The notes under the pieces: model-generated
What the model was told of the DNA's origin: nothing
The model's input: the letters and a program-made list of their open reading frames with translations, nothing else
Databases searched by the model: none
Program-made: the position numbers and the translations under genes
Assembly (NCBI RefSeq): GCF_963921235.1
Contig: NC_086107.1
Span: 105,092,001 to 105,156,000, forward strand
Direction of reading: 5' to 3'
Origin: Mobula hypostoma
Lineage: Eukaryota
Length of the DNA stretch: 64,000 bases
Shown: positions 5,907-64,000 of the stretch, in pieces
How positions within the stretch are numbered: position 1 is the stretch's first letter
Layout of the letters: each line of letters begins with the position of its first letter

Positions 5907-6089
5907 GGGCGCCTCCATTCATACGACCACCAGGATTGCCTGGAATCAGAGGACCGATTCCACGTCTGCTTCCTCCTGGACCACCACCAGGGCGACCTCC
6001 AGGCCCACCACCAGGACCCCCGCCAGGCCTTCCTCCAGGCCCACCACCCCGAGGACCCCCTCCAAGATTGCCACCACCTGCACCCCCAG
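5907..6089 (+). CDS. WBP11: WBP11 penultimate coding exon (proline-rich)
   Basis: tcacag|GG ... CCAG|gtaagt, 183 nt, phase 1-1. GAPPFIRPPGLPGIRGPIPRLLPPGPPPGRPPGPPPGPPPGLPPGPPPRGPPPRLPPPAPP. Confidence 0.95.
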
Positions 6090-8050: not shown

Positions 8051-8085
<35 letters not shown>

Positions 8086-8168
8086 GTATATATAATTATC
8101 ATTGTTTAAGGAAATGTAATTATTCATTGGTTTTCTGGAGTTGTCTAAATTTCCCTTTCTGTTTGAAG

Positions 8169-8584
8169 GTATCCCACCTCCACGGCCAGGTATGATACGC
8201 CCACCCTTGGCTCCTCCACTTGGTCCCGCGCCCCCAGGATTGTTCCCGCCAGCCCCGGTGCCAAACCCCGGTGTCCTCAGCGCTCCTCCAAGTCTCATTC
8301 AGCGGCCGAAGATGGATGAGAACATCACCACCATCGAGAAGAAAGCTATTGCCACGATCAGTGCAAAGCCCCAGATCACCAATCCTAAGGCAGAGATCAC
8401 CCGCTTTGTGCCCACCGCCTTGCGAGTCAAGCGAGAAAGTAAGAGTCAGGCGCCACTGAAGAAAGGAGAGGAAGAAGTTGTCGCCCCGACGAAGCCCGTA
8501 CCAAAGGCTGTGCCAGCTGTCTCAATCCAAACGAAGGATGACATATACGAGTCTTTCATGAAAGAAATGGAAGGTCTTTTATAA
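8169..8584 (+). CDS. WBP11: WBP11 last coding exon
   Basis: ctgtttgaag|GT acceptor. GIPPPRPGMIRPPL...ATISAKPQITNPKAEITRFVPTALRV...QTKDDIYESFMKEMEGLL*, the characteristic WBP11 C-terminus. TAA at 8582-8584. Confidence 0.96.
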
Positions 8585-8687
8585 CTAACTCAGACTTGGT
8601 CCCTCCTGATCCTAGATTACCAACCTTTCAGCAGTGTTCTTTGAGATTAATGTCTCAATGCATCCCAAGTTTGCTTTTTAAAAAAAA

Positions 8688-15393: not shown

Positions 15394-15859
15394 TGGCCAT
15401 GTCTGGGAATGCCTGGGTAGCCTCCAACCTGATGGCATGAACATTGACTTCTCTAACTTCCACTAATGCCCCACCTCCCCCTCGTACCCCATCCGTTATT
15501 TATTTATATACACACATTCTTTCTCTCTCTCTCCTTTTTCTCCCTCTGTCCCTCTGACTATACCCCTTGCCCATCCTCTGGGTTTTTCTGCCCTCCCCCT
15601 TGTCCTTCTCCCTGGGCCTCCTGTCCCATGATCCTCTCATATCCCTTTTGCCAATCACCTGTCCAGCTCTTGGCTCCATCCCTCCCCCTCCCGTCTTCTC
15701 CTATCATTTCGGATCTCCCCCTCCCCCACCCACTTTCAAATCTCTTACTAGCTCTTCCTTCAGTTAGTCCTGACGAAGGACCAAAACGTCGACTGTACCT
15801 CTTCCTAGAGATGCTGCCTGGCCTGCTGCGTTCACCAGCAACTTTGATGTGTGTTGCTT
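15394..15859 (+). mobile_element. Penelope-like element (family A) 3' end with terminal repeat
   Basis: Encodes LGSLQPDGMNIDFSNFH* (PLE GIY-YIG ORF C-terminus), then a pyrimidine-rich UTR and a decayed hammerhead motif. 13-bp TSD AAATGCAAGAGGG. Confidence 0.8.
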
Positions 15860-17444
15860 AAATGCAAGAGGGCATAGCTCTAAGGTGTGTATTTCACACG
15901 GAGAATGTATATGCCTCAATGCGCTTCCTGGGTGTGGATGGGATCATAACGGTGTTTAGGAGGCATTTAGAAAGACACGCGAACGTGCAGAGAATGGAGT
16001 GATGTGGATCGTGCAGCTAAACAGATTTATTGTAATTTGGTATCATGGTAGATGCAGACATAATGGGCCGAAGGACTTGTTTCTATGGTACACGTGACAA
16101 TAGTAAACCTTTTCCGGTTCCAGTTCTACTTTTGTCATTCACCTTCACACAAGGGGCCAATCTACCAACGCGCACATTTTTGGGATGTAGAAGGAAACGG
16201 GAAAACCTGGAGGAAACTCCTGCAAACTCCACACAGACAGCATCACAGCTCAGGATTGAACCTGGAGTGCTGGAGCTGTGTGGAACAAGTGTCATGTGGT
16301 CCAATGATTTCACACTATGTGACCCAAACTAATTAGTCCCACCCTACCACCCTCTCTGCAGATATTTAACAACCTCACATTTTCCAAATTTGGAAATCTA
16401 TGAACTCTGAGGATAATAATAAATTTCACAGAGGTATAGCCAAGCTGGTGGAACAGGCAAGTAATTTGCAGATGAAATTTAATAGAGATGAATATGAAGG
16501 GGAGAGAATATAAATGAACTAGAACAATTCTGGAATGAGTACAACAATTGGAGATTTGGGAGCATAGTGCATAGTGTGCCGAGAAAGTGATTCAGGACTA
16601 GACGGGAGGCACAAAAGGATTCAGAAATAAATGATGAGACACAGAAGACAAAAGATCCTGGAATTTGGATCGAAATACAAACTAAGGGAGGAACTCAGCA
16701 TGTCAAGCAGCAACTGTGGAGGCACTATCTGGCGGGGTGGGGTGGGGTGGTGGGGTAGCTACAGCACAGGATCAAAATAAACTGTCGAGAGTTGTAAACG
16801 TAGTCAGCTCTATCATGGGCACTAGCCTCCGTAGTATCCAGGACGTTTGCAAGGAGTGATGCCTCATAAAGGTGGCATTCATCATTAAGGACCCCATCAC
16901 ACAGATCACGCCTTGTTCTCATTGCTACCATCAGGAAGGAGGTACAGAAGCCTGAAGGCACACACTCAGTGATTCAGGAACAACTTCTTCCCCCCACAGC
17001 CATCTGATTCCTAAATGGACATTGAACCCATGAACACTACCGCATTACTTTTTTATTTCTTATTTTACACTACTTATTTCATTTAACCAATGTATATATA
17101 CTTACTGTAATTCACAGTTTTCTCTATTATTATGTACTGCATTGTACTGCTGCCACAAAGACAACAAATTTTGTGACATATACTGGTGATATTAAACCTG
17201 ATTCTGATTCAGTGTTTCAGGTTGAGACTCCATGTAAGGACGTGATCAAAGGGATGTCCTTACAAATGCTTCTTGATCTGCTGAGTTTCTCCAGAAGTTT
17301 TCTTTCTGTTTTATAAATTCAACACACCTTCAGAAGTGTGCTGAGGCTGGCTATTGCAATGGTCAAGACGCCAATGAACTGGAAGCTTTTTATATCTGTA
17401 GTGTCCTAGTCCTCTGACATGTTCATTTTTTTTCTCTCTAATAG

Positions 17445-17481: not shown

Positions 17482-18759
17482 GTGAGTTTGCTGTCCAAAC
17501 CCGGAGTCGTAAAAATGGGCTTGCTAATTATATTTCTGTCAAGGTTCAAGATTCACAATTGTTTAATGTCATTTCCAGTGAAGGAGAATGAAAATCATTG
17601 CTATTCTGGATGTTCAGGGATTCCTGTGGATAGTTTTCTCCCGGTAATATTCATGATATATTATTGTTGGAAGCACAATTCCTGCCGGAAAATTGTCAAA
17701 TCCATCAATGAGTTTATGCATAACCTGTAAAAAATGGAAAATTAATAATTAATAATCAAATTAAATGGTGATTGTTTCGAGAAGGCCAACCATGCCACCG
17801 AGGATTTCTGCTCTTCAAGTAGTGCTGCTGGATCAAGGGGACGTAGCATTTCAGTTATAGCATCCAGAACCTGGCACCTTCACTCTCCAACTTCTGAATT
17901 ACATTCAACCTAGATTGCATTCTCAGCTGTGATATAAGTCTTCTGCAATTTTCTGTCCTCTCTTCTCTCATGACTATGAATCAAACTGCTGGAGGAACCG
18001 AGTGGGTCAAGCAGCATCTGTGGGGAGAGAAGAGTTGTCCATGTACTGGGCTGCGACCCTACATTGGGACCGAGAGTGGTGCGGGAATGTAGCCAGCACA
18101 GAAAGGAAAAGGGAAAGGGGGCCAGGAGATGATAGGCGGATCACGGAGAGGTGAAGAATGGTGGACAGAAGGAAGCAGGTGAAGGGAGGGCTGAGTGGGG
18201 GCAGAGGCTGAAGCAGGGACACAAAGGCTACGTGCTGGAGTCTGATAAATACAGAGGTGATAATGGGACCCTTTGTGGGAGAGATGGAAGGCAGATAGAA
18301 CCAGGTAGGGAAGGGGATCTGATAATTCCTTTCCTCTCACAGATGTCGCTCACACTGCCGAGTCATTTCAGTAGTAGATTCCAAAATCTGCAGTCTCTTG
18401 TGTATTCAGGAAGGGATTTACTTTGTCCAATTAATGAAAAAGTCTGTATTTAACTACAGGACTGTATATGTTTCTTTTATTAATCATGTATGGGCATCAT
18501 GGCAAGATCAGCATGTACGATCTGCCCTTGAAAAGGTGAGCTACCTTCTTGATCTGCTGCAGTACTCCCATTGTACTATTGGCTGAGAAGTTTCAGGATA
18601 TGAACCAAGTGACAGTGCAGGAAGGACGATACGTTCTCAAATGAGGAGAGTAATCAGCAGGGTCATTGCTGTTACCATGAACCTGGCTTCCATGTCTTGG
18701 TGCTGGCAGTCTTGGGTTGGCAAGATGGTGTGCAGAATAGCTGGCCAAGTGGTTGTGGG

Positions 18760-19170
18760 CAGGTTGGAAGTTGGAGGCAAAATTGATGGGATTAACGAGC
18801 TCAGCATGGGAGGAGGAGGTAGCATCAATGCAGTCTTTGGTGTAGCAGAGAAAGAGTTGGGGAGGATTACCAGTGTAGACTTGTAACATGGACTGTTTCA
18901 CATGGATGACACAGTGGCAGGCATAGCTGGGGCCCATGTGAGTGCCTATGGCCATGCCTTTAATTTGGAAAGAATGGGAGGAGCTGAAGGAGAAATTGTT
19001 GAGTGAGAACCAGCTCCACCAGATGGAGGAGGAGGGTGTTGAAGAGGAAATGGTTAGGTCTGTTGTCCAGAAAGAAGTGGAGAACACTAAGACCTTGCTG
19101 ATGTATGGGGACTGAATGCCCATAGTGATCAGGACCAGGGAATTGAAAGCAATTGAAATGATAGTTCATG
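18760..19170 (-). mobile_element. Penelope-like reverse transcriptase fragment
   Basis: LNNFSFSSSHSFQIKGMAIGTHMGPSYA resembles the PLE RT motif NxFxF...QxxGxAMG...PxxA. Frameshifted. Confidence 0.75.
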
Positions 19171-19613: not shown

Positions 19614-20067
19614 GTGAGAAGAAGTGTGATTTTTGGCTGAAAATCATGATCTGGCCAGTTGACCTACCAACCTGCTCGTCTTTAAGGTGTGAGAGGAACC
19701 TGGACAATCTGGAGCAACCCAAGAAGCCATAGGGCGAGCGTTCGGACTCCACACCGACAGCACCAGAGGGCAGGACTGAAACTCTGGTTGCTGGGATTGT
19801 GAAGCAGGAGCACTACTAACCATGCCACTGTGCTGTCCTAATGTCACATTACAGATTGACTATCGCGTCTGAAACTAAAGAAATGTTTATGGGAAGCGGC
19901 GGGAAATTAAGGAAGTTCCCCCTAATTCCCTTAATTAAAAGAAAATCCCATAGTCTTCCTGCCTTAGGTAAGGAGAGGCACTGATACTAGTCGGGGAGGA
20001 ATTCTTGGTATATACTTTATTTTTAAGCTGGTAATTATATATTCAGCCCAGGTGCTATTCAACGCTG

Positions 20068-20860
20068 CTGGCAGATGCAGTTTAATGTGGATAAATACTT
20101 TGGTGGCAAGAACGGGAAGGCAGATTACTATCTGAATGGTGTCAAGTTAGGAAAAGGGGAAGTACAACGAGATCTAGGTGTCCTTGTTCATCAATCACTG
20201 AAAGTAAGCATGCAGGTACAGCAAGCAGTGAAGAAAGCTAATGGCATGCTGGCCTTCATAACAAGGGGAGTTGAGTATAGGAGCAAAGAGGTCCTTCTGC
20301 AGTTGTACAGGGCCCTGGTGAGACCACACCTGGAATACTGTGTACAGTTTTGGTCTTCAAATTTGAGAAAGTGCAGCGTAGGTTCACGAGGTTAATTCCC
20401 AGGATGGTGGGACTGTCATATGTTGAAATATTGGAGTGACTGGGCTTGTATACACTGGAATTTAGAAGGATGAGAGGGGATCTGATTGAAAGATATAAGA
20501 TTATTAAGGGATTGGACACGCTAGAGGCAGAAAACATGTTCCCGATGTTGGGGGAGTCCAGGACCAGAGGCCACAGTTTAAGAATAAAGGGTAGACAATT
20601 TAGAACAGAGTTGAGGAAAAACTTTTTCACACAGAGGGTTGTGGTTCTGTGGAATGCTCTGCCTCAGAAGGCAGTGGAGGCTAATTCTCCGGATTCTTTC
20701 AAGGAAGAGTTAGATAGAGCTCTTAAAGATAGCGGAGTGAAGGGTTATGGGGAGAAGGCAGGAACAGGGTACTGATTGTGGATGATCAGCCATGATCACA
20801 GTGAATGGCGGTGCTGGCTCGAAGGGCTGAATGGCCTACTCCTGCACCTATTGTCTATTG
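20068..20860 (+). mobile_element. CR1 LINE 3' fragment
   Basis: MQFNVDK...LYRALVRPHLEYCVQFW and FFTQRVVVLWNALP, with a (CTATTGT)n-like tail. Confidence 0.9.
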
Positions 20861-30442: not shown

Positions 30443-31069
30443 GTACTGTCAGCAGCCTTGTGGATGGCACAGAATACATTATGCACTTGAGATGTTGCAG
30501 CTTCTGATTGCGATGGATGGGGTGGTTGTTAAGGAAAGAAAAAAAACACTTTCATTGGGTCATGCTAGGTTGAAGAGAAAGGATATAACTTCCATTAAAA
30601 GGCACGTTATCTCAGGTGAATAGGATTCGGAAGGAAGAAGGTAGTGGCTCATTGAAACCCGTGATGTAAGCAAAACTTGAAAAGGTATGCTGCCCTTTCA
30701 GCTAAGCAGAATTGTGGCATGAATATTAGCAGTTTGTACATTGGAAATCCTATGGTAATAGTTAACCATGTTAAAGAACAGAAATTTGGTTATCCAGCCA
30801 CATTATGTAATATGACAATGAAATTCAGTTACAATCAAGTATTAGTTGTAGATGTGTTGTCCTGGTTATGTGCTCCTCCCTATGGTAATTATGTTACAGC
30901 AAAGCCCAAGGCCTTTACAAAATCTTTTAGACGGTTAATTCAATGTCCCAGATTGCCAAAGGTGAAAAGAATGATCTATAGGAGAAATGAGGTTCTAAGT
31001 TTTGATTTATATTATGGGATACAAAAGGAAGTAATGCCAAATTTAGAAACCAAACACAGTTTTGCACTG

Positions 31070-31287
31070 AGCAGGCCAGGCAGCATCTCTAGGAAGAGGT
31101 ACAGTCGACATTTCAGGCCAAGACCCTTCGTCAGGACTAACTGAAGAAAGAGCTAGTAAGAGATTTAAAAGTGGGAGGGGGAGGGGGAGATCCAGATATG
31201 ACTGTACCTCTTCCTAGAGATGCTGCCTGGCCTGCTGTGTTCACCAGCAACTTTGATATGTGTTGCATCTGCAGAGTTCCTCGTGTT
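31070..31287 (-). mobile_element. Short Penelope-derived (family A) inverted-repeat insertion with hammerhead motif at 31103-31138
   Basis: 14-bp TSD ACAGTTTTGCACTG. Minus strand reads AGTC-CTGACGA-AGGGTCTTGGCCT-GAAATGTC-GACT. Confidence 0.8.
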
Positions 31288-31699
31288 ACAGTTTTGCACT
31301 GTTATAGAATTATTAGTGAAACCATGAAAAATTGTGTAAAATATGGTTTAGGACTACGACTAGGTTGTTTGGCTCGTCGGGCCTGCTGTACCATTCGTTA
31401 AGATGAGTGGCAGATTTGACTGTAAGTTCACTTTTACATTCTTACCTACCTCTGTTAACCATTCTCCTCCTTGATTATCAAGAATCTATCTACTTGTAGA
31501 GCCATGCAACATAAAAATAGAGTCTTTTGGCCACCACGCCCATGCCCAGTAAATATCTATCTACACTAATTACACTTACCATCTATCTACACTAATTATT
31601 TGGTCCACAGCTTTCCATTCCTTGGCAATTGTTGATATCTACATGGAGGACTTTGAGGAGAGGGCTCTGAGTTCATTGCCTTTACACCTCAACAGCTTC

Positions 31700-33612: not shown

Positions 33613-34553
33613 GTCATGCTCTGAGTAATGGACAGGTATAGAATATGCTTTCTTCATCACCTTGACGACTTGTGCTGCCCTCTTTAAGGATCCTTGTACT
33701 TATACACTGAGCTTTCTCTGTTTCTCAATACTCTCTCAAGTCCGACCATTCACTGTAGAAACCAAGTTCTAGATACCCTCACAAGAGGATTTATCGTTTT
33801 CACATCCACACTGGAACTAACAAGTTGCAATCAATCCAGCCCTCACTCTCTAAACTGTAAAGTGTACTCTGTACAGCCTCTCCTCATGAGACAACCCTCC
33901 CATTCCAGGTATTTAACTAGTAGACCTTGTGGACCTGCATTAGAACACCCAGATCTCTCTGCTTCGCAGACCATAATAGAGTCATATTTATTTCCTTGTC
34001 AGAGTGGACTATTTACCTTTTCCCACATTTTACTCTACTTGTTAGATCCTTATCCGTTCACTTAACCTAGCTGAGTCCCTCACTTAACCCATCTGCATCC
34101 AGTTTATTAAGGACACCTGCTCGTTAATGCAAATATCTCATTAACCAGTCATGTGGCAACAATTCAATGCATAAAGGCATGCAGACATGGTCAAGATGCT
34201 CAGTTGTTGTTTACATCAAACATCAGAATGGAGAAGAAATGTGATCTAAGTGACTTGGTGCCAGATGGGGTGGTTTGAGTATCTCAGAAACTGCTGATCA
34301 CCTGAGATTTTCATGCACAGCAGTCTCTAGAGTTTACAGAGAATGGTGTGGGGAATAGAAAAAAAACATCTAGTGAGCTGCAAGTCTGTGGGTGTTTTTG
34401 CTACAGTCGCACCATAAATAATTAAATAGTAATATGTAAATTATGCCAGGAAATAAGTCCAGGACCAGCCTATTGGCTCAGGGTGTCTGACCCTCCAAGG
34501 GAGGAGTTGTAAAGTTTGATGGCCACAGGCAGGAATGACTTCCTATGACGTTC

Positions 34554-37103
34554 CTATGGTATTAAACAGGAAATTAGAAATGTGTGCAATAAAGGAACAG
34601 CAGTTATAATGGGTGACTTCAATCTACATGTAGACTGGGTGAACCAAATTGGTAAAGGTGCTGAGGAAGAGGATTTCTTGGAATGTATGCGGGATGGTTT
34701 TTTGAACCAACATGTCGAGGAACCAACTAGAGAGCAGGCTATTCTGGACTGGGTTTTGAGCAATGAGGAAGGGTTAATTAGCGATCTTGTCGTGAGAGGC
34801 CCCTTGGGTAAGAGTGACCATAATATGGTGGAATTCTTCATTAAGATTGAGAGTGACATAGTTAATTCAGAAACAAAGGTTCTGAACTTAAAGAGGGGTA
34901 ACTTTGAAGGTATGAGACGTGAATTAGCTAAGATAGACTGGCAAATGACACTTAAAGAATTGACGGTGGATATGCAATGGCAAGCATTTAAAGGTTGCAT
35001 GGATGAACTACAACAATTGTTCATCCCAGTTTGGCAAAAGAATAAATCAGGGAAGGTAGTGCACCCGTGGCTGACAAGAGAAATTAGGGATAGTATCAAT
35101 TCCAAAGAAGAAGCATACAAATTAGCCAGAGAAAATGGCTCACCTGAGGACTGGGAGAAATTCAGAGTTCAGCAGAGGAGGACAAAGGGCTTAATTAGGA
35201 AGGGGAAAAAAAGATTATGAGAGAAAATTGTCAGGGAACATAAAAACGGACTGTAAAAGCTTTTATAGATATGTAAAAAGGAAAAGACTGGTAAAGACAA
35301 ATGTAGGTCCCCTGCAGACAGAAACAGGTGAATTGATTATGGGGACCAAGGACATGGCAGACCAATTGAATAGTTACTTTGGTTCTGTCTTCACTAAGGA
35401 GGACATAAATAATCTTCCAGAAATAGTAAGGGAGAAAGGGTCCAGTGGGATGGAGGAACTGAGCGAAATACATGTTAGTAGGGAAATGGTGTTAGGTAAA
35501 TTGAAGGGATTGAAGGCAGATAAATCCCCAGGGCCAGATGGTCTGCATCCTAGAGTGCTTAAAGAAGTAGCCCAAGAAATAGTGGATGCATTAGTGATAA
35601 TTTTTCAAAACTCGTTAGATTCTGGACTAGTTCCTCAGGATTGGAGGGTGGCTAATGTAACCCCACTTTTTGAAAAAGGAGGGAGAGAGAAACCGGGGAA
35701 TTATAGACCGGTTAGCCTAACGTCGGTGGTGGGGAAACTGCTGGAGTCAGTTATCAAGGATGTGATAACAGCACATTTGGAAAGCGGTGAAATGATCGGA
35801 CAAAGTCAGCATGGATTTGTGGAAGGAAAATCATGTCTGACGAATCTCATAGAATTTTTTGAGGATGTAATTAGTAGAGTGGATAGGGGAGAACCAGTGG
35901 ATGTGGTATATTTGGATTTTCAAACGGCTTTTGACAAGGTCCCACACAGGAGATTAGTGTGCAAACTTAAAGCACACGGTATTGGGGGTAAGGTATTGGT
36001 GTGGGTGGAGAATTGGTTAGCAGACAGGAAGCAAAGAGTGGGAATAAACGGGACCTTTTCAGAATGGCAGGCCGTGACTAGTGGGGTACCGCAAGGCTCA
36101 GTGCTGGGACCCCAGTTGTTTACAATATATATTAATGACTTGGATGAGGGAATTAAATGCAGCATCTCCAAGTTTGCGGATGACACGAAGCTGGGTGGCA
36201 GTGTTAGCAGTGAGGAGGATGCTAAGAGGATGCAGGGTGACTTGGATAGGTTGGGTGAGTGGGCAAATTCATGGCAGATGCAATTTAATGTGGATAAATG
36301 TGAAGTTATCCACTTTGGTGGCAAAAATAGGAAAACAGATTATTATCTGAATGGTGGCCGATTAGGAAAAGGGGAGGTGCAATGAGACCTGGGTGTCATT
36401 ATACACCAGTCATTGAAAGTGGGCATGCAGGTACAGCAGGTGGTGAAAAAGGCGAATGGTATGCTGGCATTTATAGTGAGAGGATTCGAGTACAGGAGCA
36501 GGGAGGTACTACTGCAGTTGTACAAGGCCTTGGTGAGACCACACCTGGAGTATTGTGTGCAGTTTTGGTCCCCTAATCTGAGGAAAGACATCTTTGCCAT
36601 AGAGGGAGTACAAAGAAGGTTCACCAGATTGATTCCTGGGATGGTGGGACTTTCATATGAAGAAAGACTGGATGAATTGGGCTTGTACTCGTTGGAATTT
36701 AGAAGATTGAGGGGGGATCTAATTGAAACGTATAAGATCCTAAAGGGATTGGACAGGCTAGATGCAGGAAGATTGTTCCTGATGTTGGGGAAGTCCAGAA
36801 CGAGGGGTCACAGTTTGAGGATAGAGGGGAAGCCTTTTAGGACCGAGATTAGGAAAAACTTCTTCACACAGAGAGTGGTGAATCTGTGGAATTCTCTGCC
36901 ACAGGAAACTGTTGAGGCCAGTTCATTGGCTATATTTAAGAGGGAGTTAGATATTGCCCTTGTGGCTACGGGGGTCAGGGGGTATGGAGGGAAGGCTGGG
37001 GCGGGGTTCTGAGTTGGATGATCAGCCATGATCATAATAAATGGCGGTGCAGGCTCGAAGGGCCGAATGGCCTACTCCTGCACCTATTTTCTATGTTTCT
37101 ATG
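34554..37103 (+). mobile_element. 5'-truncated CR1 LINE (endonuclease C-terminus, reverse transcriptase, 3' UTR); young but with a frameshift and a stop
   Basis: ORFs 34582-35220 (IMGDFN, LDWV, SDHN), 35228-36385 (PGPDG, YLDFQTAFDKV, GVPQGSVLGP, KFADD) and 36413-37012. Frameshift in the A-run near 35210, TGA at 36383, (TTTCTATG)n tail. Confidence 0.95.
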
Positions 37104-41824: not shown

Positions 41825-44794
41825 CCATGGAAAAGATGAGTCCCTACATCAGGACTCGAAAGGAAGGGAGAAGTCAGTGTAAGGAGGTGGGGAGGAAGAA
41901 GTACAAGGGGGCAGGTGATAGGTGGAACCGGGAGAGGGAGAGGCAGTGAAGTAAAGGGTTGAGAAGTTGTTTGGTGAAAGAGATAAAGGGCTGAAGAAGG
42001 GTGAATCTGATATGTGAGGACTGAAGACCAGGGAAGAGGGGAAGGGAAGGAGCACCAGAGGGAGGTGATAGGCAGGTAAGTACAGAAGGTGAGAGAGGGA
42101 AACGGGAATGGGGTATGGTGCAGGAGAGGAAGTGGGGGCAACTACCAGAAGTTCAAGAGATCGATGTTTATGCTATTAGATTGGAGGCTAAGTTAACTGT
42201 CACTATCCTGTTGATGTCTTTCTTGTTGACTAGTTTAAATAATTTTGTTATGTTTGTCCACAAAGCTTCAAGTTACTGAAAACTAGAGTTATGTAACTCA
42301 GTGTCTGAAACTGAAAAACTGAGGTGAAAAGTTAACATCAACGTTGAAGTTAGGAAAGTCAGGGAGCAAATAACAGAAGCCAGAAATTGCTGTGGATTTT
42401 AAATGTCTCTAGAAGAGAGAATGGAGAGATTTTATGAGACTCTGCAACCTAACCGGCTATGGGTTTGGTCAGAAAACTAAGAATAATCTAATCTAATCTA
42501 ATAACTCACGTGAAGTTTTGGAGCACCCCAGTAGTCAGGCAGTATCTATGGGAAGGAATAGAGTTGATGTTTCAGGCCGAGACCCTTCATCACGACTAGA
42601 ATGAAAGGAGGAAGAAGCCATAATAAGAAGATGGGGGAGGGAGGGAACGTCGACTCAGACCATGAGGGGCCTGTGTCGGGCATTTTCATGCCTTACAAGG
42701 CGCAGATTGGGAGTCTGTGTGGGACGCCACTCCTCGCACAGACACTAGAGCAATGTGTGGTTAAGTGCCTTGCTCAAGGGCACAATCACGCTGCCACAGC
42801 CGAGGCTCGAACTAGCGACCTTCAGATCACTAGACGAACACCTTAACCATTTGGCCACGTGCCCAACACGAGGGGAAGGAATTACAGGCTATAAGGTGAT
42901 AGGTGAACCCCTGTGAGGGGGGAGCTAGGTGGGTGGGGAGGGGTGAATTAAGAAGCTGGGACGTGATAGGTGCAAAAATCAAAGTGCTGAAGAAGGAGGA
43001 ATTGATAGAAAAAGGGGAGTGGACCTTGGGAGAAAGGAGAGGAGGAGGGACATGAGAGGGAGTGATAGGCAGGTAAGGAGAAGAGAAGAGGTGAAGGGGA
43101 AGCCATAATGTGGAATAGAAGATGAGAGAAATTGCGGGGGTGGGGGGGGAGGGAGAAACAACCGGAGGCCATGCCATAAGGTTGGAGACTACCCGGACAG
43201 AGGTGGATGGTGCCTTTGCTTTTTTGCAGAAGTGGGTGGGGGTGGGAGGGCCGTCGTTATGGAGGCTGCTTGTGCGTGGGGGCGTGGGGGGTAGTCGGGG
43301 AAGCGTTGAAGTTCCAACGTTTTATCTGTCACTCACTCTGTGGGGCCCTTTTCTATTTTCATGGATGTCTGCAAAGATCAACAATTTCAGGAATTGAATT
43401 GAGTTTATTTCTTACATCCCTCACATACATGAGGAGTAAAAATCTTTATGTTACATCTCCGTCTAAATGTGCAATATATAGTAATTTGTGATAAATAGTA
43501 TGTACAACAGGACAGTCAATATACCATAGAAATACAATTGTATCAGCATGAATTAATCGGTCTGATGGCCTGGTGGAAGAAGCTGTCCGGGAGATGTGTA
43601 TTGCATACATTTCTCTGATATTAAATGGAACTTTTGAACTATTGAATACGAGGCGTTGCCCCTCCAGCCTGGGAGTGGTCTCATCTCAGCAGCTGAGGAG
43701 GCCATGGACTGACCTGTTGGAATGTGAGTGGGTTTAAATTACTAATCTAACTTCTGCATTGTCAGCTGGGCCTTCTGTCTGCAGTACTGAAACAAAAAAC
43801 ACTAATGGACGGCTATAAGGGGGGCACAGCTGAACTCTGCATCCATGGCTGTGGACCTCGTTCAGACCTGCAATTTCACCCAGACCTGGGACTCCTCAGC
43901 ATAATTCTGCGAGGTTTGAGGAATTCACCCCACCTGGCAATATGAAAGGAAAGAACAGTCTGTTGCCTACCATATGATTCCTATGAACAGTGAATGGTTA
44001 CCTGTCACCACCGGCTACTTGCTTTTTCTTGTGGACTGTAAATCTCTAAAAGCGGCAGGTCTGTGTTAACACATCTATACTGTCTCAAGCCCCCTGAGCC
44101 AGTACTCAGACTGGCTACTTCTATCTTTGCTGCAAAAATCGGTGCTTTAATACTAAGAAATTCTCAAGTGAGGGAAAGAAGAAGACCAGAGCAATGTTAA
44201 TCAAATGTAGGACGACAGAATAATTGAAATGGAGGTAGAGAGAGGAAAGAGCAAGGGTTCCTAACCTTTTTATGCCATAGACTGAGGGGTCTGTGGACCC
44301 CCGGGCTAGAGGAAAGTAAACGTGATTTTAGGTTAATTCTACCAAAGAGTTAAATGAACTTCCCTTGATAAGGGAGTAGTGGTAAAGGTGATTCTGTGAA
44401 TGCATCCCACTTTCAAAGGGAGCACAGGTCAGAATTAGAAGGACAATGGATTCATATTTTCTTATCCAACTGCCTCTCCCCCCCACCCCTCACCAGCAGC
44501 AGTAGATGATATGTCTCCCTTGTTGGATTTTGACAGGAGTGAGCTTTATAGACAAAGACCTGCAAGAAAAAAAATCCTACAAAAATGGTGGCTACAGCCC
44601 AGTCCATCGCAGGGAAAGCCCTCCCCACTATTGAGCACACCTACAAAATGTGCTGCCACAAGAAAGCAGGGACATTATCAAGGACCCCCACTCTCCAGGC
44701 CAGGTTCTCTCCTTCCTGCTGCCATCGGGAAGAAGGTACGGGAGCCTTCAGTCCCACACTAACAAGTTCAGGAACAGTTGTCACCATCAGGCTC

Positions 44795-46094: not shown

Positions 46095-47362
46095 GTAAGC
46101 AGGGGCAAAGAGCTAAAGAGAGTGTAATCACACTTACTACGTAAATGGGCTACGTAAGTTAGTATTGCAATAACCTGGTTCAACAGTGTTACATTATGCT
46201 ATATCAACATTGCAAGTAGTTGTCCAGACTGAAATGTCAGGTTAGTTCAACCTGAATGGTGAGAGGATTGAGTCATACTGAATTTAGAGTACTGTATTTT
46301 GTAAATAAGGAAAATTTACGAGGATGTTGCCGGGACTTGATGACCTGAGTTATCAGGAAAGATTGAATAGGTTTGGACTTTATTCCCTGGAGCGTAGGAG
46401 AACGAGGGAGACTTGACAGAGATACACAAAGTTATAAGGGATATAGGTAGGGTTAATGCAAGCAGGCTTTTTTTAAACCGCTAAGGTAGGGTGAGATAGA
46501 ACTAGGGATCGTAGGTTAAGGGTGAAAGGTGAAATATTTAGGGGGAACTTCTTCACTCACAGTGTGGAACAAGCCGTCAGCGGTAATGGTGGATGTGTGT
46601 TCCATTAGGGGAAGTATGGGTGAGGTTGTATAGAGGTCTATGGTTCAGATGGGACTAGGCAGAATAATAGTTTGGTACGGACTAGATGGGCCAAAGGGCC
46701 TGTTTCTGAGTTGTATCAGTGGGATATTCCAACAGCAAGAGGACCCAAACTACTTTGAGATGGAATTCCCGGTGTAGAAGTGGCAATGGGATAAGCAGTA
46801 CTTCAAAGGCAAAATACCGTAAATGTTGGAACTTCTGGAGCATCTGTAGTACACTACTTTTGGATTTCTGTTTCTTTTAAGGAGAGTTTATGTAATCTAG
46901 GATCTTATTTTCTGAAATGTTGGAGATTGAGTGGTGATCTGCTTGAGATATGTAAGCTCATGAGGGGTATAGAGAGAGAAGCACTTAGTCTCCTTCCCAG
47001 GGAGGGGAGCTAAAAATGAGAGAGCATAGGTTGAAGGTCAGAGGTGAGGAATGTAAAAAGTACATCAGGAGCAGCTTCTTCATGCAAAGGGTGATACCCA
47101 TCTGGAATGAGCTGCCAGAAATACTGGTTGACACAGACACCATCCAGATTTAAGAGCCATCTCAAGAAGTACATCTTAGGAGAGGTTTAGAGATTGAAGG
47201 ACCAAGCTTGAGCTGATTGGATTAGCGTGCTGGGCATCACATCGGGGATGAATTGTGCTGAACGGCCCATTTTGGTGCTCAGTGACCATCACTGTTCCCA
47301 GATCAATGGTTGTGATATATGTGTGATGCTACTGCCTTTTAGCCACTGGCAGTTAAGGCAAC

Positions 47363-48431
47363 TTTGATAAAGTGAAGCACAATAAGTTATTTGAGATACT
47401 ACAGGAAACTCTAGCTTTAGATTCGAAAGACCTCCGCCTAATCAGAAATCTGTACTGGGAACAAACTGCCACTGTAAGAATAGATGGAGAAGTGAGTCAG
47501 TTTACAAAAATCAAGAGAGGCATTAGACAAGGGTGTGTTTTCTCCCCTGATTTATTTAATGTGTACAGTAAAACAATATTACAAAAAATAAGAGATATCT
47601 TGGGAATCAAAGTTGGCGGTGAAAACATCATTAATTTCAGATATGTGAATGACACTGTGTTAATTGCAAGTACGGAGGAAGAACTACAAACTTAATTGAT
47701 ATAATTGTTGAAGAAAGTGCAAAAATGAGTCTATCTATCAATTGCAAAAAGACAGAATGCATGGTGATCTCCAAAAAGAAGGAGAATCCCATCTGCAGGC
47801 TGAGAATAAATGGGGAAGACATAAAACAAGTACAGAACTTTTGCTACTTAGGAAGCTGGGTAACATTGGATGGCAGGTGCGACATGGACATCAAAAGAAG
47901 AATAGGGATGGCGAAAGACACCTTTATGAGAATGAAGAGTATACTGACCAATACTAAACTAGGCATGACAACCCGCCTCAGAGTACTGAAATGTTACGTT
48001 TATCCAGTTATGTTGTATGGCTCAGAATGTTGGACAATATCTAGTAACATGAGGAAATGAATTGAAGCAGCAGAGATGTGGTTTTTGAGGAGGATGCAAA
48101 GAACATCATGGACGAAACGAATATCTAACGAGGATGTCATGAACAGAGCAAACACAAAAAGACAAATAATGTATGAGATCATGAAAAGGCAACGTAACTT
48201 CATTGGACATGTGATTAGGAAAGAGGAGTTAGAATGCACGGTAATTATGGGAAAGATTGAAGGGAAGAAAGCAAGAGGAAGGCAAAGACAAATGATGATG
48301 GAGACAGCAGCCAGAGAACTGGAAATGAATACCAATGAATTGATCCACTTGACCCGAAACAGGAGTGGGTGGGCCATGGCAGTCAGAGCTCAAACGGGGC
48401 ACGGGACGTGATGATGATAATGATGATGATT
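47363..48431 (+). mobile_element. 5'-truncated RTE-clade LINE with (GAT)n tail
   Basis: RGIRQGCVFSPDLFNVY, FRYVND, FCYLGS, LYGSECW. Tail gatgatgataatgatgatgat. Flanked by TTAAGGCA(A/G)C duplication. Confidence 0.9.
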
Positions 48432-49760: not shown

Positions 49761-51190
49761 CAGAATGTATATGGTTGATAATGAACCCAGAAATGAAAGG
49801 GTAAATGATTAAGGAGTGTTTGATGGCCTTGAGCCTGAACTCATTGGAGTTTAGAAGGATGAGGGGGGGATCTTGTTGAAACCTACCAAATATGAAAGGC
49901 CTAGATCGAGTAGACATGAAGAGGATGTTTCCAATAGTGGGAGAGTCTAGGATTAGAGGGGAGATTCTCAGAATAGTAGGACATCCCTTTAGAGCAGAGA
50001 AGAGGAGTAATTTCTTTAGCCAGAGAATGGTGAATCTGTGGAATTCATTGGCACAGATGGCTGCGGAGGTCAAGTCATTGGATATATTTAAAGTGGAGGT
50101 TGAGTGGTTCTTGATCGAGCATCAAAAGGTACAGGGTCCTCCTAATAGAAGAGTTGGGTTAAGAGGGAAAATAAATCAGCCATAATCAAATGATGGAGCC
50201 AATCAAACAATTGGGTGAATGGCTTAATTCTGCTCCTATGTTTCTTAGACCTGGATCCAGACTTATGCCTGAGATGGTCCATGCATCTCACTCATCCCAG
50301 TGTCTCCAATTGTGATATTAGGTGTGACCTGGGAACTGGACTATCTGCAGTGGTGTTGAGATGCTGCCTGCACCGTGCTCCTCTTGACTCCTATGCAAAT
50401 CTGCCTGGCAGACAATTTCTGAGGAGCTGGAGCTGCCATGGTGATTCCTGAGAGCTGTTGGCCATCCTAGAGCCGGAGCAGCTGGCAGGGCACTTGTCCA
50501 GGGCGGACAGAAGTGAGCCACGTAGATCAGGAGTCTCACTCCATCAGGTTCCTGACCCTGGCTGTAGACAGAGTTCTTGCGGAGAAACCGTTCCCGTTCA
50601 TGAGGGAGAAACCAATTAATTCCATCGGCATGAAAGTGAATGAAATGATCAGTGAAAGTACAAAAAGTGAAGCGAGGTAAACTTCTTTATACAGAAAGAA
50701 GTTTACCTCACTTCACTTTTTGTACTTTCACTGATTGTAGACTGAAAACCCAGACTGAAAGTCTTAGGAACAGCTTCTTTCCCACCCCTATCAGATTTCT
50801 GAATGGCCCATGAACCCATGAACACTTCCCCGTTATTTGTCCTTTGCATTATTTATTTGTTTGTGTAACTTATTGTAATTTTTATGCTTTGAACAGTACT
50901 ACTGCCCACAAAGCAACACATTCCATTACATATGTCGATGACGATAAAGCTGATTCTGTAAAGCTCTGCGGGGTTGGGTGGTGGAAACAGGTTCGTATTG
51001 TGACATCTGAAAGAGAAGTTGATAAGTCTTTGAAAGAAGAAAGTGAAGGTCTGAGGAGAATGCTCAGGGGTGCAGGGGGTAATTAATTTGTCCTAATGTT
51101 GGATTGGCACAGACTTGATGGACTGAATGGCCTCCCTCCACATTGGGATTTCTGATTCTGTAACCCAGCTTCCATTTGCTGTTGTTACAG

Positions 51191-51445
51191 AAGAGGGAGA
51201 TCTTGACCAAAACAAAACAGGCACGGGACAGGTTCCGGACCGCCAACGCCAAGCTGAAGGAGGAGTGCGGCTTGCTGTGTAACAAGCTGCTGCTTCATGA
51301 CCTCGAAGACAACGTGGACACCAACGAGAGACTGCGGTACAAGCTGGAGGAGCTAAAGAGGCGACACATTGACTTAACTCTCAACTCCTATGGAATCAAG
51401 AAGAAAATTGAGTGGGTAAAGATGGGGCAGTTGCAGGCTCAGTGA
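51191..51445 (+). CDS. CCDC96: CCDC96-like last coding exon
   Basis: gttacag|AAG acceptor. KREILTKTKQARDRFRTANAKLKEECGLLCNKLLLHDLED...KKKIEWVKMGQLQAQ*, the CCDC96-type C-terminus. The 11 exons sum to 1566 nt, an open frame. Confidence 0.92.
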   Translation, partial: KREILTKTKQARDRFRTANAKLKEECGLLCNKLLLHDLEDNVDTNERLRYKLEELKRRHIDLTLNSYGIKKKIEWVKMGQLQAQ

Positions 51446-51493
51446 GAGCCCTCAGGAGACAGGGAGAGAAGCATTTCTACTGCATTCTGTTAC

Positions 51494-51528
51494 AATAAAT
51501 ATTAAATAAGATGTTATATGACTTTATT
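51494..51528. terminator. Opposed polyadenylation signals: AATAAA (+, 51494-51499) for CCDC96-like and AATAAA (-, 51523-51528) candidate for PDE6H
   Basis: Hexamers read directly. The minus-strand one is the first AATAAA I found downstream of the PDE6H stop. Confidence 0.6.
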
Positions 51529-51942
51529 CTGAATTCTTAGTTGTGACAAGCAGGAATAAAAGGGCTTTCTCTACAGAAATGCAAGGCATGAAGTGAGTAC
51601 AACAGTACTAGTTCCACCAAGACTTGGGGCAAAACACAATTAAAAAACTGGAGGAGATCAGTGGGTCAGTTACAGCCCAAAATGTTTTCCGTCCGTCTCC
51701 CTCTTTGGATGCTGCCGAACCCGCTAAGTTCCTCCAGCTTTCTGTGTGTTGCTCCAGGCAGGTTTTCAAGGGGAAACCAGAGCTTCATCCATTGTATGAA
51801 CCAATTTTTTCCCACTTCAAAGACAATAAAAGTTTTAAATCTTTTTTTTACATTTTCATTCTCTACATGTTAATGGACATTCCAATTTCACACAGCACAG
51901 ACAGCTAAATGAATTCATTTGGAGGTGTGAGAGAAACCTTTC

Positions 51943-52203
51943 ACAAACATGAGAAAGTCTGCAGATGCTCGAAGTCCAAGTGACACACACAAAATGCCGG
52001 AGGAACTCAGCAGGCCAGGCAACAACTATGGAAAAGGGTACAGCCGATGTTTCAGGCCTAGACCGTTCACCAGGACTAGGGATCTCAGCAGGCCAGGCAG
52101 CATCTATGGAAAAGAATACAGTCGACGTTTCGGGCCGAGATCCTTCGTCAGGACTCAAGGAACTCAACTGAGTTCCTCCAGCACTTTGTGTGTGTGTTGC
52201 TGG
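51943..52203 (-). mobile_element. Penelope-derived (family A) insertion with two tandem hammerhead motifs
   Basis: 78-nt tandem unit with motifs at 52120-52155 and 52042-52077. TSD GAGAAA(C/T)CTTTC. Confidence 0.8.
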
Positions 52204-52575
52204 GAGAAATCTTTCCGCACGTTTCTCCTGGAGAGAATCCAAACAGACTTCTTAATGAATGGAACAGAAAATGACCAATGCAATAATCAAAATTCTGTAC
52301 TAAAAAGTAGAACTTTACTGTACAACTTTCCTGAAATCCACAGAAGCAATTGAACCCATGAATATATATGGTGACTACACAGTGCCCTTCACAGTCGTTG
52401 TATGAAAACTGACAGCTACATTAATGTTCAGGCTCCAGATGGTGAACAGTAATCGTGCAGTACAGCACACAGTGGATTCTAATAGCGACTCTGCTCCTTC
52501 TGCCTCACTAGGATTAATGCTGCAGCAGAAACACCAGCCACTCCCTGACGTTCGGTCTGCACTTCCCTGCCTCTG

Positions 52576-52652
52576 TCAGACGATTCCGTATTGAGCCAGT
52601 TCGTGAAGCTCCAAGTGGCTGAAAGCCTCCCAGGGGCAAATCACAGTAATAT
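52576..52652 (-). CDS. PDE6H: PDE6 gamma subunit, last coding exon
   Basis: ctttcag|AT ATT ACT... [25 protein letters not shown], the PDE6 gamma inhibitory C-terminus. Confidence 0.95.
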
Positions 52653-52734: not shown

Positions 52735-53230
52735 ACCCCACCATTCAGAGTATCTGCCCTACACTTGTATATTGGATTCCCTCTATTCCTCAATACTCCC
52801 TACTATTTGTGGTGTAAGTCTTTCCCTTGTAAACTGATGTCCCCCTGTTCTTTGATACTCCCTACCACCCACCATATGTGAGCCACCCTCATTCACCAAG
52901 GTCTCTCTGAATCTCAATACTCAATACCATTCATGGTGTGTGTTCTGCCCTAGAACACTGAGGTCCCTTTGTTCCTCGATGCTCCTCCCCATTCACCGTG
53001 TGCGTCCTACCCTCGTACACCGAGGTCACTCTGTTCCTCAATACTTACCATCATTCACAGTGTTGGTCCTACACTTGTATACTAAGGTCCTCTGTTGCTC
53101 ACTAACACTCAACTTTCATGGGGTGTGTCCTACCCTCATACGTCAAAGTCACCCCGCCTTTCATGACGTGTGTCCTACCCTCATATGCCAAAGTCCCCCA
53201 CCTTTCATGGTGTGTGTCCTACCCTTGTGC
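52735..53230. repeat. Degenerate tandem repeat of about 60-bp units in the last PDE6H intron
   Basis: Recurrent ccattca..gtgtg.gtcctaccct...aaggtc.ctctgttcctcaatact units, about 8 copies, shortening to about 48 bp. Confidence 0.7.
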
Positions 53231-62070: not shown

Positions 62071-64000
62071 CATGTGCTGGGTGAGGGACAGGTGGCAGAG
62101 AGGGTGTGCCTGGGGCAGGGGGTGGCACGGGTGCCGACAAACCCAGCCCTGAGACACCAGGCAAGATGATTTGATTCTAAACAATTAGTTTATTGATCAT
62201 TACAGAATGTCTCTCTGGTGCTTCCTGCACCCTCCTCTCTCCCTTCCCCTTTTCCCAACCATGATTTCCCTCCCCCTGCCCCCTTCCCACTCTCAGTCCA
62301 CAATAGAAACTCATATCAGAATCAGGTTTATCATCACTCACACGTCATGAATTTTTTTTGTGGTAGCAGTACGGTGCAATACATAAAATTACTACAGTAC
62401 TGTGCAAAACTTTTAGATATTTTAGCTATATATGTATGTGCCTAAGACTTTTGCATGGTTCTATGTGCATATGACCTCAGAATTCTGTACAAATCAGTTG
62501 AATCTTTCCTCAAGCATCTTTGTTTCAGAATATAATGACCCCAGCCATAGCAGTCTCTCCCCCCATGACTCTAATTCTCTACACTGGCAATATCCTTGCA
62601 GTCTTTAGCCCACTCTAATAATGCAATAGCATCCTAACCTGGTGCAATAATTAGGACTTTAATTATGGGTGAGCTAATGTTTAGTGTAGTTCCAGCATTA
62701 TTGTCCTATTATTGTATACCAAACTTTGACCAAGAAGTATTCTTTATCTTCAACCTCATCTTCCTGCCCCCTCTGTTGTTGTCTATGGTCATTCACTTCA
62801 ATTCCCCTACATTGTTCTGCATCCTACCATTTGCCATGTGTTCTCTCTCCAGGTGGATTTTCCATGTCTTCCAAGAGTTTTCCACCTACCTGACCAATCT
62901 CTTGGCATCTTCCTGCATCCTACAAATGATTTGTGGGAAGGGAGAGCTTCTGGGGCTTCAATGTTTCTATGATTCATTCTATGGAGTGGTCTAGTCTGTG
63001 CTGCAGTGACCCTATGACTCTCTGACGCCTTGTTTCGCGGATGTCGGTGAAGAGTAAGAATTTCAGGTTGTACACTGAATACATTCTCTGATATTAAATT
63101 GAACCTTTGAACCTTTGAACTTCCTCAACCTCATCCTTCCCATCACACTTGGTATCATCTGAAACCCACGCCCCTGCATTTAACTCATTAGTATACACCA
63201 TGAAAGGTAAGTTCCATGACATAATGATATGCCCAATTTGGAGACTGATGCAATTGCAAGTTAGAATGTAAACTAAATCAGTGCTGATCAGTCCCATTTC
63301 AACCACCAGCTAATAGCATTTCAGGATTTAATTTCACTTAATGGATTTGACTAATCATCTTGCTGATCTGCCCATCCAGTACATGTCCACTGTTGATTCT
63401 GATTTCAGGTAATCCTTTTTTACCTAGCTAACTCATGTTGTAAAGGACCTTTGAGTACTTCTTCGGAAGGCTATATCCCACTTACATGAAAGCAGAGAGC
63501 ACTGGAAATACTCAGCATCTGTGGAGAGAGAAAACCGAGTCAAAATTTGTAAACACAATAGATTCTGCAGATGCTGGAAATCCAGAGCAACACGCACAAG
63601 ATGCTGGAGGAGCAATGCGAGGTCAGACAGCATCTATGGAGGGGAATAAACAGTCAACGTTTCGTGCTGAGACCCTTCATCAGGATTTGGAATAAACAGT
63701 CGACGTTTTGATCAGGACCTGACCTCAAGTCCTGAAGAAGGATCTTTGCCCTGAGCATTGTCTGTTTATTCTTTTTCATAAATGCTGCCTGACCTTCTGA
63801 GTTCCTCCAGCATTTTCTGTGTGTGTGTATTGCACAGAATCAAAACTGCAGACTAACCATCTCTTTTGAACATCCCAGTTTCACCTGGTCCAATATTCCT
63901 CCAACAGAATTTGCTTTCCAAGCATGGAAACAACTGTGAGTCCATAGAGACTGTGATGACTAAAATAACCAGGCAAAATTAGTATGTCACCAATGACTCA

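What the first reader, a model, noticed from the sequence alone, without database searches (positions are those of the whole stretch)
52042..52155. Tandem hammerhead ribozyme pair in sense orientation in the predicted PDE6H 3' UTR
Seen: on the minus (PDE6H) strand, between the stop (52576) and the first AATAAA (51523), are two motifs 78 nt apart. One is AGUC-CUGACGA-A-GGAUCUCGGCCC-GAAAC-GUC-GACU, with an intact catalytic core. The other is AGUC-CUGGUGA-A-CGGUCUAGGCCU-GAAAC-AUC-GGCU, with a mutated core. Established: Penelope-type minimal hammerheads have a loopless palindromic stem III (ACGU) and cleave as dimers. Inference: the tandem layout could let core 1 pair with the AUC site of copy 2 (stem I AGUC/GGCU, one stem III mismatch) and cut the poly(A) tail from a phototransduction mRNA. 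Alternatively, the mutations in copy 2 may reflect selection against cleavage.
Basis: partly seen in the sequence, partly recalled or inferred. Interest (0 to 1): 0.7.

Follow-up and report, generated by a model that had tools for sequence, protein, structure and literature searches.

The report
Dead ribozyme pair in retinal mRNA
Two decayed copies of a small self-cutting RNA motif, carried in by a very common jumping gene, sit in the tail of a ray's retinal gene message, but mutations most likely lock them in a shape that cannot cut, so this is an ordinary leftover.

Summary
The two motifs are real, 78 nt apart, on the strand of a PDE6-gamma gene (probably PDE6H) of a stingray-like fish. They belong to one 261-bp Penelope-like element insertion: target-site duplication, inverted 5' arm, two hammerhead units in partial tandem, tail. 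The family has 28 fragments in this window (E<=0.001), one directly behind a Penelope ORF end. Spliced RNA-like contigs from two organisms run from exon 3 into the element, so it probably lies in the 3' UTR. The proposed cleavage is unlikely. Copy 1 keeps all 11 core bases but has an A.C mismatch in helix II and a competing 10-bp helix (predicted 80-96% formed; helix II 0%). The core-1/site-2 fold costs 21.9 kcal/mol, against 7.1 for a consensus tandem. Copy 2 has A6G, a broken 10.1-11.1 pair and a 15.2-16.2 mismatch; two of these changes are CpG transitions common in sister copies. One contig bridges site 2 uncut. Minimal hammerheads in Penelope elements are published and cut poorly even as designed dimers. 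The scan has noted this family repeatedly elsewhere in this genome. Verdict: a passive retroelement relic in a UTR; no cleavage assay was run.

The parts
52204..52215 (-). Target-site duplication, upstream copy (11 of 12 identical to the downstream copy; 13 of 15 if extended by eye)
   Evidence: 0 of 150 random window pairs score as high; search windows were chosen by eye
52168..52203 (-). Inverted, 5'-truncated copy of the element tail (left arm); pairs with 52010-51983 as a 28-bp stem
   Evidence: I2, 93% complementary; mean pair probability 0.99
52120..52155 (-). Minimal type I hammerhead, copy 1: 11 of 11 core bases, ACGU palindrome, GUC site (cut would fall between 52124 and 52123); helix II has 3 of 4 pairs (A.C at 10.3-11.3)
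52080..52143 (-). Competing 10-bp helix, 52143-52134 with 52089-52080, which sequesters the 5' strand of copy 1's helix II
   Evidence: pair probabilities 0.80-0.96 in four contexts up to 1.7 kb; helix II 0.000; also in the minimum-energy fold
52042..52077 (-). Minimal hammerhead, copy 2: A6G, C.U at 10.1-11.1, ACAU in place of the palindrome, AUC site (cut would fall between 52046 and 52045)
   Evidence: site bridged by X1 contig 7, 51995-52108, 0 differences
51943..52041 (-). Rest of unit 2 and the element's 3' tail, including the right arm 52010-51983
51931..51942 (-). Target-site duplication, downstream copy
52576..52652 (-). Last coding exon of the PDE6-gamma gene (exon 1 57679-57552, exon 2 54167-54127; 81 codons plus stop, GT-AG introns)
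   Evidence: Pfam PF04868 E 6.6e-15 for exon 1; cartilaginous-fish relatives named cone-type
51523..51528 (-). First canonical AATAAA; RNA-like contigs run past it. A second AATAAA lies at 50857-50852
51630..51756 (.). A second, older and more decayed copy of the same family in the same UTR
   Evidence: 51671-51756, E 1.7e-7; I3, I5
15413..15884 (+). Reference copy of the family: C-terminal codons of a Penelope ORF (15413-15460), pyrimidine-rich 3' repeat, hammerhead at 15766, tail
   Evidence: 6 of 9 scanned relatives carry both RVT_1 and GIY-YIG

Best explanation
A 5'-truncated Penelope-like retroelement inserted once into the 3' UTR of the PDE6-gamma (probably PDE6H) gene. It left a 12-15 bp target-site duplication and the inverted-plus-partial-tandem layout typical of these elements. 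The two hammerheads come from the element's pseudo-LTR and have decayed since, partly by CpG transitions. They are transcribed as passengers but do not cleave the mRNA to any meaningful degree: helix II of copy 1 is mismatched and captured in a 10-bp alternative helix, the pair next to site 2 is mismatched, and core 2 is broken. Shown: sequence anatomy, family membership, TSD, lesions, predicted folds, contigs in the element. Inferred: insertion order, neutrality, no cleavage in vivo, strand of the contigs.
For: 28 family fragments at E<=0.001 in 64 kb; about 54,000 contigs laid on the stretch in each of two DNA-like runs, with depth piled on the repeats. Penelope ORF end, 3' repeat, hammerhead and tail in a row at 15413-15884. 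TSD at this insertion and at 5 of 7 others tested. A second partial tandem at 63713-63692 before the 63689 copy. Partial tandems, inverted 5'-truncated copies and tails are the described PLE layout (PMC8557442 passages). Active layout costs 21.9 kcal/mol against 7.1 for a consensus tandem, and 27.0 against 19.3 once flanks are added under a looser constraint. No single swap to the sister copy's letter comes below 14.8. Core not better kept than non-core in 10 sister copies (20 of 110 against 123 of 537, p=0.31); CpG changes 30 of 80 against 139 of 637 elsewhere. No covariation above shuffles (304 of 500). X1 contig 7 bridges site 2 with 63 and 51 letters on the two sides; X18 contig 32 reaches 32 reference positions past site 1. 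Even designed dimers of a minimal PLE hammerhead cut poorly in vitro (PMC4209133 results).
Against: Copy 1 keeps 11 of 11 core bases and 8 of 8 CpG positions, where sister copies lose 37.5% of CpG positions; only 3 of 18 aligned copies keep the whole core. The element is present at the same place in a second organism whose flank differs at 74 of 803 letters, so it has been retained. Nearest-neighbour energies ignore tertiary contacts, proteins and co-transcriptional folding. Contigs show that uncut molecules exist, not what share is cut, and cut 5' products would be invisible in a poly(A) library. X1 and X18 are only guessed to be RNA, tissue is not given, and no listed X1 contig bridges site 1.
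Confidence: 0.85

Rival explanations
1. The insertion was at first able to cut the mRNA, and selection switched it off: two changes in copy 1 break helix II and complete an alternative 10-bp helix, while copy 2 lost its core and palindrome.
For: The changes at unit positions 14 and 72 of copy 1 pair with partners in the alternative helix and account for the two largest gains when copy 1 takes the sister letter (21.9 to 14.8 and to 19.7). Both possible pairings are disabled. Tandem hammerhead repeats are depleted from exons in Xenopus (10.64898/2026.07.22.740005).
Against: The position-14 change recurs in 3 of 13 sister copies that have a letter there. Helix II is predicted unformed in 6 of 8 copies folded, so inactivity is the norm. 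Two of copy 2's key lesions are CpG transitions also seen in 5 of 16 and 4 of 16 others. The coincidence was noticed after the fact.
Confidence: 0.07
2. The tandem is a weak or conditional cis-cleaver (core 1 on the AUC of copy 2) that removes the poly(A) tail and lowers PDE6H mRNA, perhaps helped by proteins or by co-transcriptional folding.
For: Sense orientation in a probably transcribed UTR; intact core 1; 4 of 4 stem I pairs; nested geometry possible. AUC is a good site when properly paired (PMC1636495 passages). Precedent: the Clec2d 3' UTR hammerhead lowers a reporter by 80% (PMC2950038 passages). The X1 contig downstream of site 2 has lower depth (65 against 155-160), though contig depths cannot rank parts of a gene.
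Against: 8 of 10 needed pairs; about 15 kcal/mol worse than the control; helix II probability 0.000; C.A at 15.2-16.2; site 2 bridged in X1; X18 depth is nearly flat on both sides (115 and 99). For an Anolis PLE hammerhead no RNA-seq read ends were found at the cut site (PMC11167929 passages).
Confidence: 0.04
3. The element affects the mRNA, but through its 28-bp inverted-arm duplex (double-stranded RNA binding, editing or decay) and not through catalysis.
For: Arms 93% complementary over 28 nt; predicted pair probability 0.99 in the whole UTR.
Against: X1 contigs 1, 7 and 8 show 0 differences from the DNA, so no majority A-to-I editing. Inverted arms are common in this family in introns too. 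No functional data.
Confidence: 0.04

Closest known systems
Minimal type I hammerheads (min-HHR) in pseudo-LTRs of metazoan Penelope-like elements, including Xena, Poseidon and Neptune of fishes (Cervera and De la Pena 2014, PMC4209133)
   Same: CUGANGA/GAAA core, extra base between 9 and 10.1, G10.1-C11.1 in the family majority, short helix I, loopless palindromic 15.2-16.2, position behind an RT plus GIY-YIG ORF end, mostly truncated dispersed copies.
   Different: Helix II is 4 bp here, against 7-8 bp in the Schistosoma families described. This insertion has no ORF, both copies are damaged, and it lies in a host 3' UTR. No shark, skate or Callorhinchus mention was found in the one supplement file searched.
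Complex PLE insertions with partial tandems, an inverted 5'-truncated copy and a tail (Craig et al. 2021, PMC8557442; Frangieh et al. 2024, PMC11167929)
   Same: Inverted arm at the 5' end, partial tandem, tail, target-site duplication.
   Different: Very short (261 bp); the clade (Poseidon or Neptune) was not determined.
Non-LTR retrozymes of animals (Li, Clavereau and Pollet 2026, 10.64898/2026.07.22.740005)
   Same: Tandem units that each bear a type I hammerhead, PLE origin; exonic copies tend to lie in 3' UTRs.
   Different: Fails their test for an active retrozyme (two consecutive complete hammerheads): copy 2 is incomplete and copy 1's helix II is predicted unformed.
Clec2d 3' UTR hammerhead of rodents (PMC2950038, review of the original work)
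   Same: Hammerhead in sense orientation between stop codon and poly(A) site of a vertebrate mRNA.
   Different: Clec2d is a discontinuous full hammerhead, conserved across mammals and shown to lower a reporter. Here the motif is a damaged minimal dimer type from a high-copy repeat, with no shown activity.

Membership tests
Penelope-like element (EN+) derivative | Sequence is the 3' pseudo-LTR of an element with an RT plus GIY-YIG ORF | tested here: met
   Family copy at 15766 follows an ORF end matching C-termini of RVT_1 plus GIY-YIG proteins; similar remnant at 43733-43644 upstream of the 42597 copy. The UTR insertion itself has no ORF.
Penelope-like element (EN+) derivative | 5' truncation, partial tandem, inverted 5' copy, tail | tested here: met
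   layout as in PMC8557442 passages
Penelope-like element (EN+) derivative | Target-site duplication | tested here: met
   11 of 12 identical; 6 of 8 insertions tested have one; 0 of 150 random pairs for each of the six
Penelope-like element (EN+) derivative | RT phylogeny placing it in a named clade | not tested
   No tree built; no full-length element in the window; no genome held
Minimal type I hammerhead motif (min-HHR) | Invariant core bases | tested here: inconclusive
   Met for copy 1 (11 of 11), not met for copy 2 (10 of 11, A6G)
Minimal type I hammerhead motif (min-HHR) | Helix II with G10.1-C11.1 and helix I pairable in the family | tested here: met
   78.9% of cells paired in 18 copies against 15.8-50% when slid; covariation not above shuffles
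Active dimeric hammerhead | Helix II formed in the catalytic copy | tested here: not met
   3 of 4 pairs in each copy; probability 0.000 for copy 1, at most 0.09 for copy 2
Active dimeric hammerhead | Fully paired palindromic helix III between the two copies | tested here: not met
   3 of 4 pairs; the C.A mismatch is at 15.2-16.2 of core 1/site 2
Active dimeric hammerhead | Self-cleavage shown in vitro or in vivo | not testable with these tools
   Only contigs were available; one bridges site 2
Active non-LTR retrozyme (Li et al. 2026) | [quoted passage not shown] | tested here: not met
   criterion read; census
Domesticated 3' UTR ribozyme (Clec2 type) | Lies in the host mRNA 3' UTR in sense orientation | tested here: met
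   Spliced RNA-like contigs reach 52170 (X1) and 52092 (X18); strand and tissue not shown
Domesticated 3' UTR ribozyme (Clec2 type) | Core and helices conserved in orthologues beyond the neutral rate | tested here: inconclusive
   Element present in organism F, but paralogue pile-up hid the letters inside the element
PDE6H (host gene) | PDE6-gamma family and orthology to the cone paralogue | tested here: inconclusive
   PF04868; cartilaginous-fish hits named cone-type, best overall hit named rod-type; WBP11 in the window, whose linkage to PDE6H is recalled; no tree

The most novel reading that the evidence does not exclude
A Penelope tandem hammerhead landed in the 3' UTR of a cone phototransduction gene and was converted into a two-state RNA: two changes made an alternative 10-bp helix that holds an intact core off. 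This is either a record of selection silencing a self-cleaving insertion, or a latent switch that can still cut the mRNA when a protein or co-transcriptional folding frees helix II.
Probability: 0.08. Interest if true: 0.6.

Novelty: new member of a known kind. Interest (0 to 1): 0.17.

Why it matters
As found, it matters little: it is one of a very large number of decayed Penelope hammerheads in this genome, and it happens to sit in a UTR. If the pair did cut, it would be a rare natural case of a retroelement ribozyme controlling a vertebrate mRNA, and would give an in vivo test of dimer-type minimal hammerheads, whose activity is in doubt. The more useful point is general: with a family this dense, ray transcriptomes hold thousands of copies (3,876 and 2,901 contigs laid in two RNA-like runs). 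One could therefore test genome-wide whether intact sense tandems are purged from UTRs.

Tried and rejected
No whole genome is held, so no genome-wide counts or orthologue alignments were possible. Rfam gave no hammerhead match. Family patterns found 0 loci in viral contigs and 0 in two metagenome scans. No listed run is on record as RNA; X1 and X18 are RNA by guess, supported by their contigs stopping at the exon 3 acceptor. Joints that skip about 80 nt in X10, X14 and X18 were considered as a sign that relatives have one unit only, and rejected: any single-unit paralogue gives the same joint. The hole at 52109-52169 among the listed X1 pieces is not evidence, as the table is cut (117,559 pieces not shown). 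Summed depth over the element is not a copy number. The folding z-score of the 141-nt tandem is unremarkable (0.51). Core 2 on site 1 costs less (14.3 kcal/mol) but core 2 has A6G and a broken 10.1-11.1 pair; a search for natural hammerheads rejected such hits (PMC3088659 passages). Cleavage in trans by other family RNAs was considered and judged negligible, because it rests on 4+4 bp (inference). The first pair count was one column out of register and was repeated. Pfam did not recognise the decayed RT fragment directly; its relatives were used. No TSD was found at 63.7k or 51.7k. A look-up of earlier findings by sequence gave nothing.

Full report
OBSERVATION. The minus strand carries both motifs as written: copy 1 at 52155-52120 and copy 2 at 52077-52042. 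They head two units of a 78-nt tandem that are 83% identical over 76 nt. The host gene has three coding exons (57679-57552, 54167-54127, 52652-52576) with GT-AG introns and 81 codons; exon 1 matches Pfam PDE6_gamma. Cartilaginous-fish relatives are named cone-type, while the best overall hit is named rod-type. WBP11 lies at the start of the window, 99% identical over 94 residues to a stingray protein. Linkage of WBP11 to PDE6H is recalled, so PDE6H is probable and not proven. Lagman et al. report only PDE6G and PDE6H in elephant shark (PMC4906994, passages).

WHAT THE ELEMENT IS. The motifs lie in a 261-bp insertion, 52203-51943, bounded by a direct repeat (11 of 12 identical; 0 of 150 random pairs as good; windows chosen by eye). 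In order it holds an inverted 28-nt arm, two hammerhead units and a tail. A profile built from 11 window copies finds 31 fragments at E<=1 (28 at E<=0.001), against 1 weak hit in the reversed window. Six of 8 insertions tested have 11-15 bp target-site duplications. Several have inverted arms, and the copy at 63689 is preceded by a truncated second unit. At 15413-15884 the last codons of an ORF are followed by a pyrimidine-rich stretch, the hammerhead and the tail. Those codons match the C-termini of relatives (E-values are for a 181-nt subject and so lenient). The relatives came from an RT-like remnant at 19003-18740 (282 hits at E<=0.001); 6 of the 9 scanned carry both RVT_1 and GIY-YIG. This is the 3' pseudo-LTR of an endonuclease-bearing Penelope-like element. 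Partial tandems, an adjacent inverted truncated copy and a tail are the described insertion pattern (PMC8557442, passages). The two units differ at 13 of 74 positions. They share only three differences from the window consensus, which I read as subfamily variants. The tandem is therefore old and probably arrived with the insertion (inference).

IS IT IN THE mRNA? Four runs were laid, all as contigs. In X1 (organism A) a contig matches 52170-52655 with no differences and stops at the exon 3 acceptor, with 201 further letters that do not follow the intron. X18 (organism F) behaves alike and reaches 52092. The DNA-like runs X10 and X14 continue into the intron. X1 and X18 therefore look like spliced RNA, although the tool only guesses RNA, the extra letters were not shown, and contigs give no strand or tissue. 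X1 contig 7 (51995-52108, 0 differences, depth 155 against 160 upstream) spans the junction of the units and bridges site 2 with 63 and 51 letters. Uncut molecules thus exist; the cut share cannot be read. No listed X1 piece bridges site 1. X18 contig 32 reaches 32 reference positions past site 1, but some of its 29 gap letters were not located. Contigs in both runs continue past AATAAA 51528, through the last exon of a convergent CCDC113/CCDC96-family gene and into its last intron. The X1 contig runs 286 letters beyond 51080, near the second AATAAA at 50857. The element is at the same place in organism F, whose flank differs at 74 of 803 letters, so the insertion predates that split. Whether F has both units could not be seen.

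CAN IT CUT? In the dimer layout, core 1 uses helix I with the strand after site 2 (4 of 4 pairs), its own helix II (3 of 4; A.C at 10.3-11.3) and helix III (3 of 4; C.A at 15.2-16.2, next to the cut). Forcing the core-1/site-2 layout costs 21.9 kcal/mol relative to the free ensemble. A tandem of the consensus of 16 other window copies, treated identically, costs 7.1. Under a looser constraint the cost rises from 19.3 to 27.0 as flanks are added. The cause is a 10-bp helix between 52143-52134 and 52089-52080 (probability 0.80-0.96 in four contexts; helix II 0.000), inside a 28-bp stem formed by the arms (0.99). No single swap to the sister copy's letter brings the cost below 14.8. Core 2 on site 1 costs 14.3 but has A6G and C.U at 10.1-11.1. 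An A6 variant had low activity, and hits with core changes or mispairs at 10.1-11.1 were rejected in a large survey (PMC3088659, passages). AUC is a good site when 15.2-16.2 is paired (PMC1636495, passages). That a mismatch there lowers the rate strongly is recalled and was not found in a call. These energies ignore tertiary contacts and proteins, so only the comparison with the control carries weight. Cervera and De la Pena saw no cleavage by a single minimal hammerhead and low cleavage by dimers and trimers (PMC4209133, parts 1-2 of 4 read). For an Anolis element, no RNA-seq ends were found at the cut site (PMC11167929, passages).

DECAY OR SELECTION? I aligned 18 of the 31 fragments, those with some hammerhead part. 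Three of 18 keep all 11 core bases, and one (31138, a single copy) also has both helices pairable. In 10 full-length sister copies, core positions changed at 20 of 110 and non-core non-CpG positions at 123 of 537 (p=0.31); CpG positions changed at 30 of 80, 27 of them transitions, against 139 of 637 elsewhere. Copy 2's changes at 11.1 and 16.2 are such transitions, seen in 5 of 16 and 4 of 16 others. Helices pair in 78.9% of cells but show no covariation beyond shuffles. By my count from the alignment, copy 1 carries 4 of the 13 differences and copy 2 carries 9, which is not a significant gap (p=0.27). Against the neutral reading: copy 1 keeps all core bases and all 8 CpG positions, and two of its changes complete the inactivating helix. 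The first of these recurs in 3 of 13 sister copies, and helix II is predicted unformed in 6 of 8 copies folded, so I give selection for silence about 7%.

COMPARISON AND NOVELTY. The motif works like, and derives from, the minimal hammerheads of Penelope pseudo-LTRs, already reported from fishes. It fails the test for an active dimer and for an active retrozyme; that preprint also covers one chondrichthyan and finds exonic copies mostly in 3' UTRs (10.64898/2026.07.22.740005, parts 1-2 of 5 read; its supplements are closed and may list a related family). It resembles the Clec2d ribozyme only in position (PMC2950038, passages; PMC6155905, passages). I found no paper on this locus or on ray hammerheads. 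The searches were hammerhead ribozyme + Penelope + shark (1 paper, where shark refers to the ribozyme's name), a search including batoid (0 occurrences in the 10 listed of 38), (listing only), and PDE6H + ribozyme (8 papers, listing only, none on this). One of the supplement files of PMC4209133 could not be searched. Earlier notes of this scan describe the same family many times in this genome (31 notes fit the word hammerhead, 8 shown). They are unchecked and were read after my analysis.

VERDICT. A real but ordinary feature: a decayed Penelope-like insertion with two damaged minimal hammerheads, probably transcribed in a retinal mRNA's 3' UTR, and predicted unable to cut (confidence 0.85). 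Interest 0.17.

Noticed in passing
window 50794-51570: RNA-like contigs of two organisms run from the PDE6H UTR past the first AATAAA, through the last exon (51191-51445, + strand) and into the last intron of a convergent CCDC113/CCDC96-family gene. This suggests a UTR of about 1.7 kb that overlaps the neighbour in antisense; strand not shown.
   Followed up: partly
window 52156-52175: At the junction of the inverted arm and unit 1 there is a perfect 9-bp hairpin with a 2-nt loop, possibly a template-switch scar from the insertion.
   Followed up: no
window 9663-9847: Family insertion with a perfect 14-bp TSD whose two inverted arms meet at the ACGT palindrome of the hammerhead.
   Followed up: partly
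window 63550-63860: Inverted full hammerhead arm, a truncated unit and a unit with an intact core: a second tandem-plus-inverted insertion, upstream of PDE6H on its strand.
   Followed up: partly
window 31035-31301: The only one of 18 aligned copies with intact core and both helices pairable; single, antisense to the CCDC-family gene, 14-bp TSD.
   Followed up: partly
window 18740-19165 and 43644-43733: Decayed Penelope RT and endonuclease-end remnants, each upstream of a hammerhead-family copy on the same strand.
   Followed up: partly
window 52885-53225: Degenerate minisatellite (periods 62 and 45) in PDE6H intron 2.
   Followed up: no
window 20027-20858, 34549-37009, 47357-48408: Long reading frames that look like LINE (CR1/L2-like and RTE-like) remnants; the names are recalled and were not tested.
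   Followed up: no
window 1-8600 and about 19500-51570: WBP11 followed by a CCDC113/CCDC96-family gene on the + strand; a catshark model fusing both domains suggests that the order is kept in sharks (P0183).
   Followed up: no
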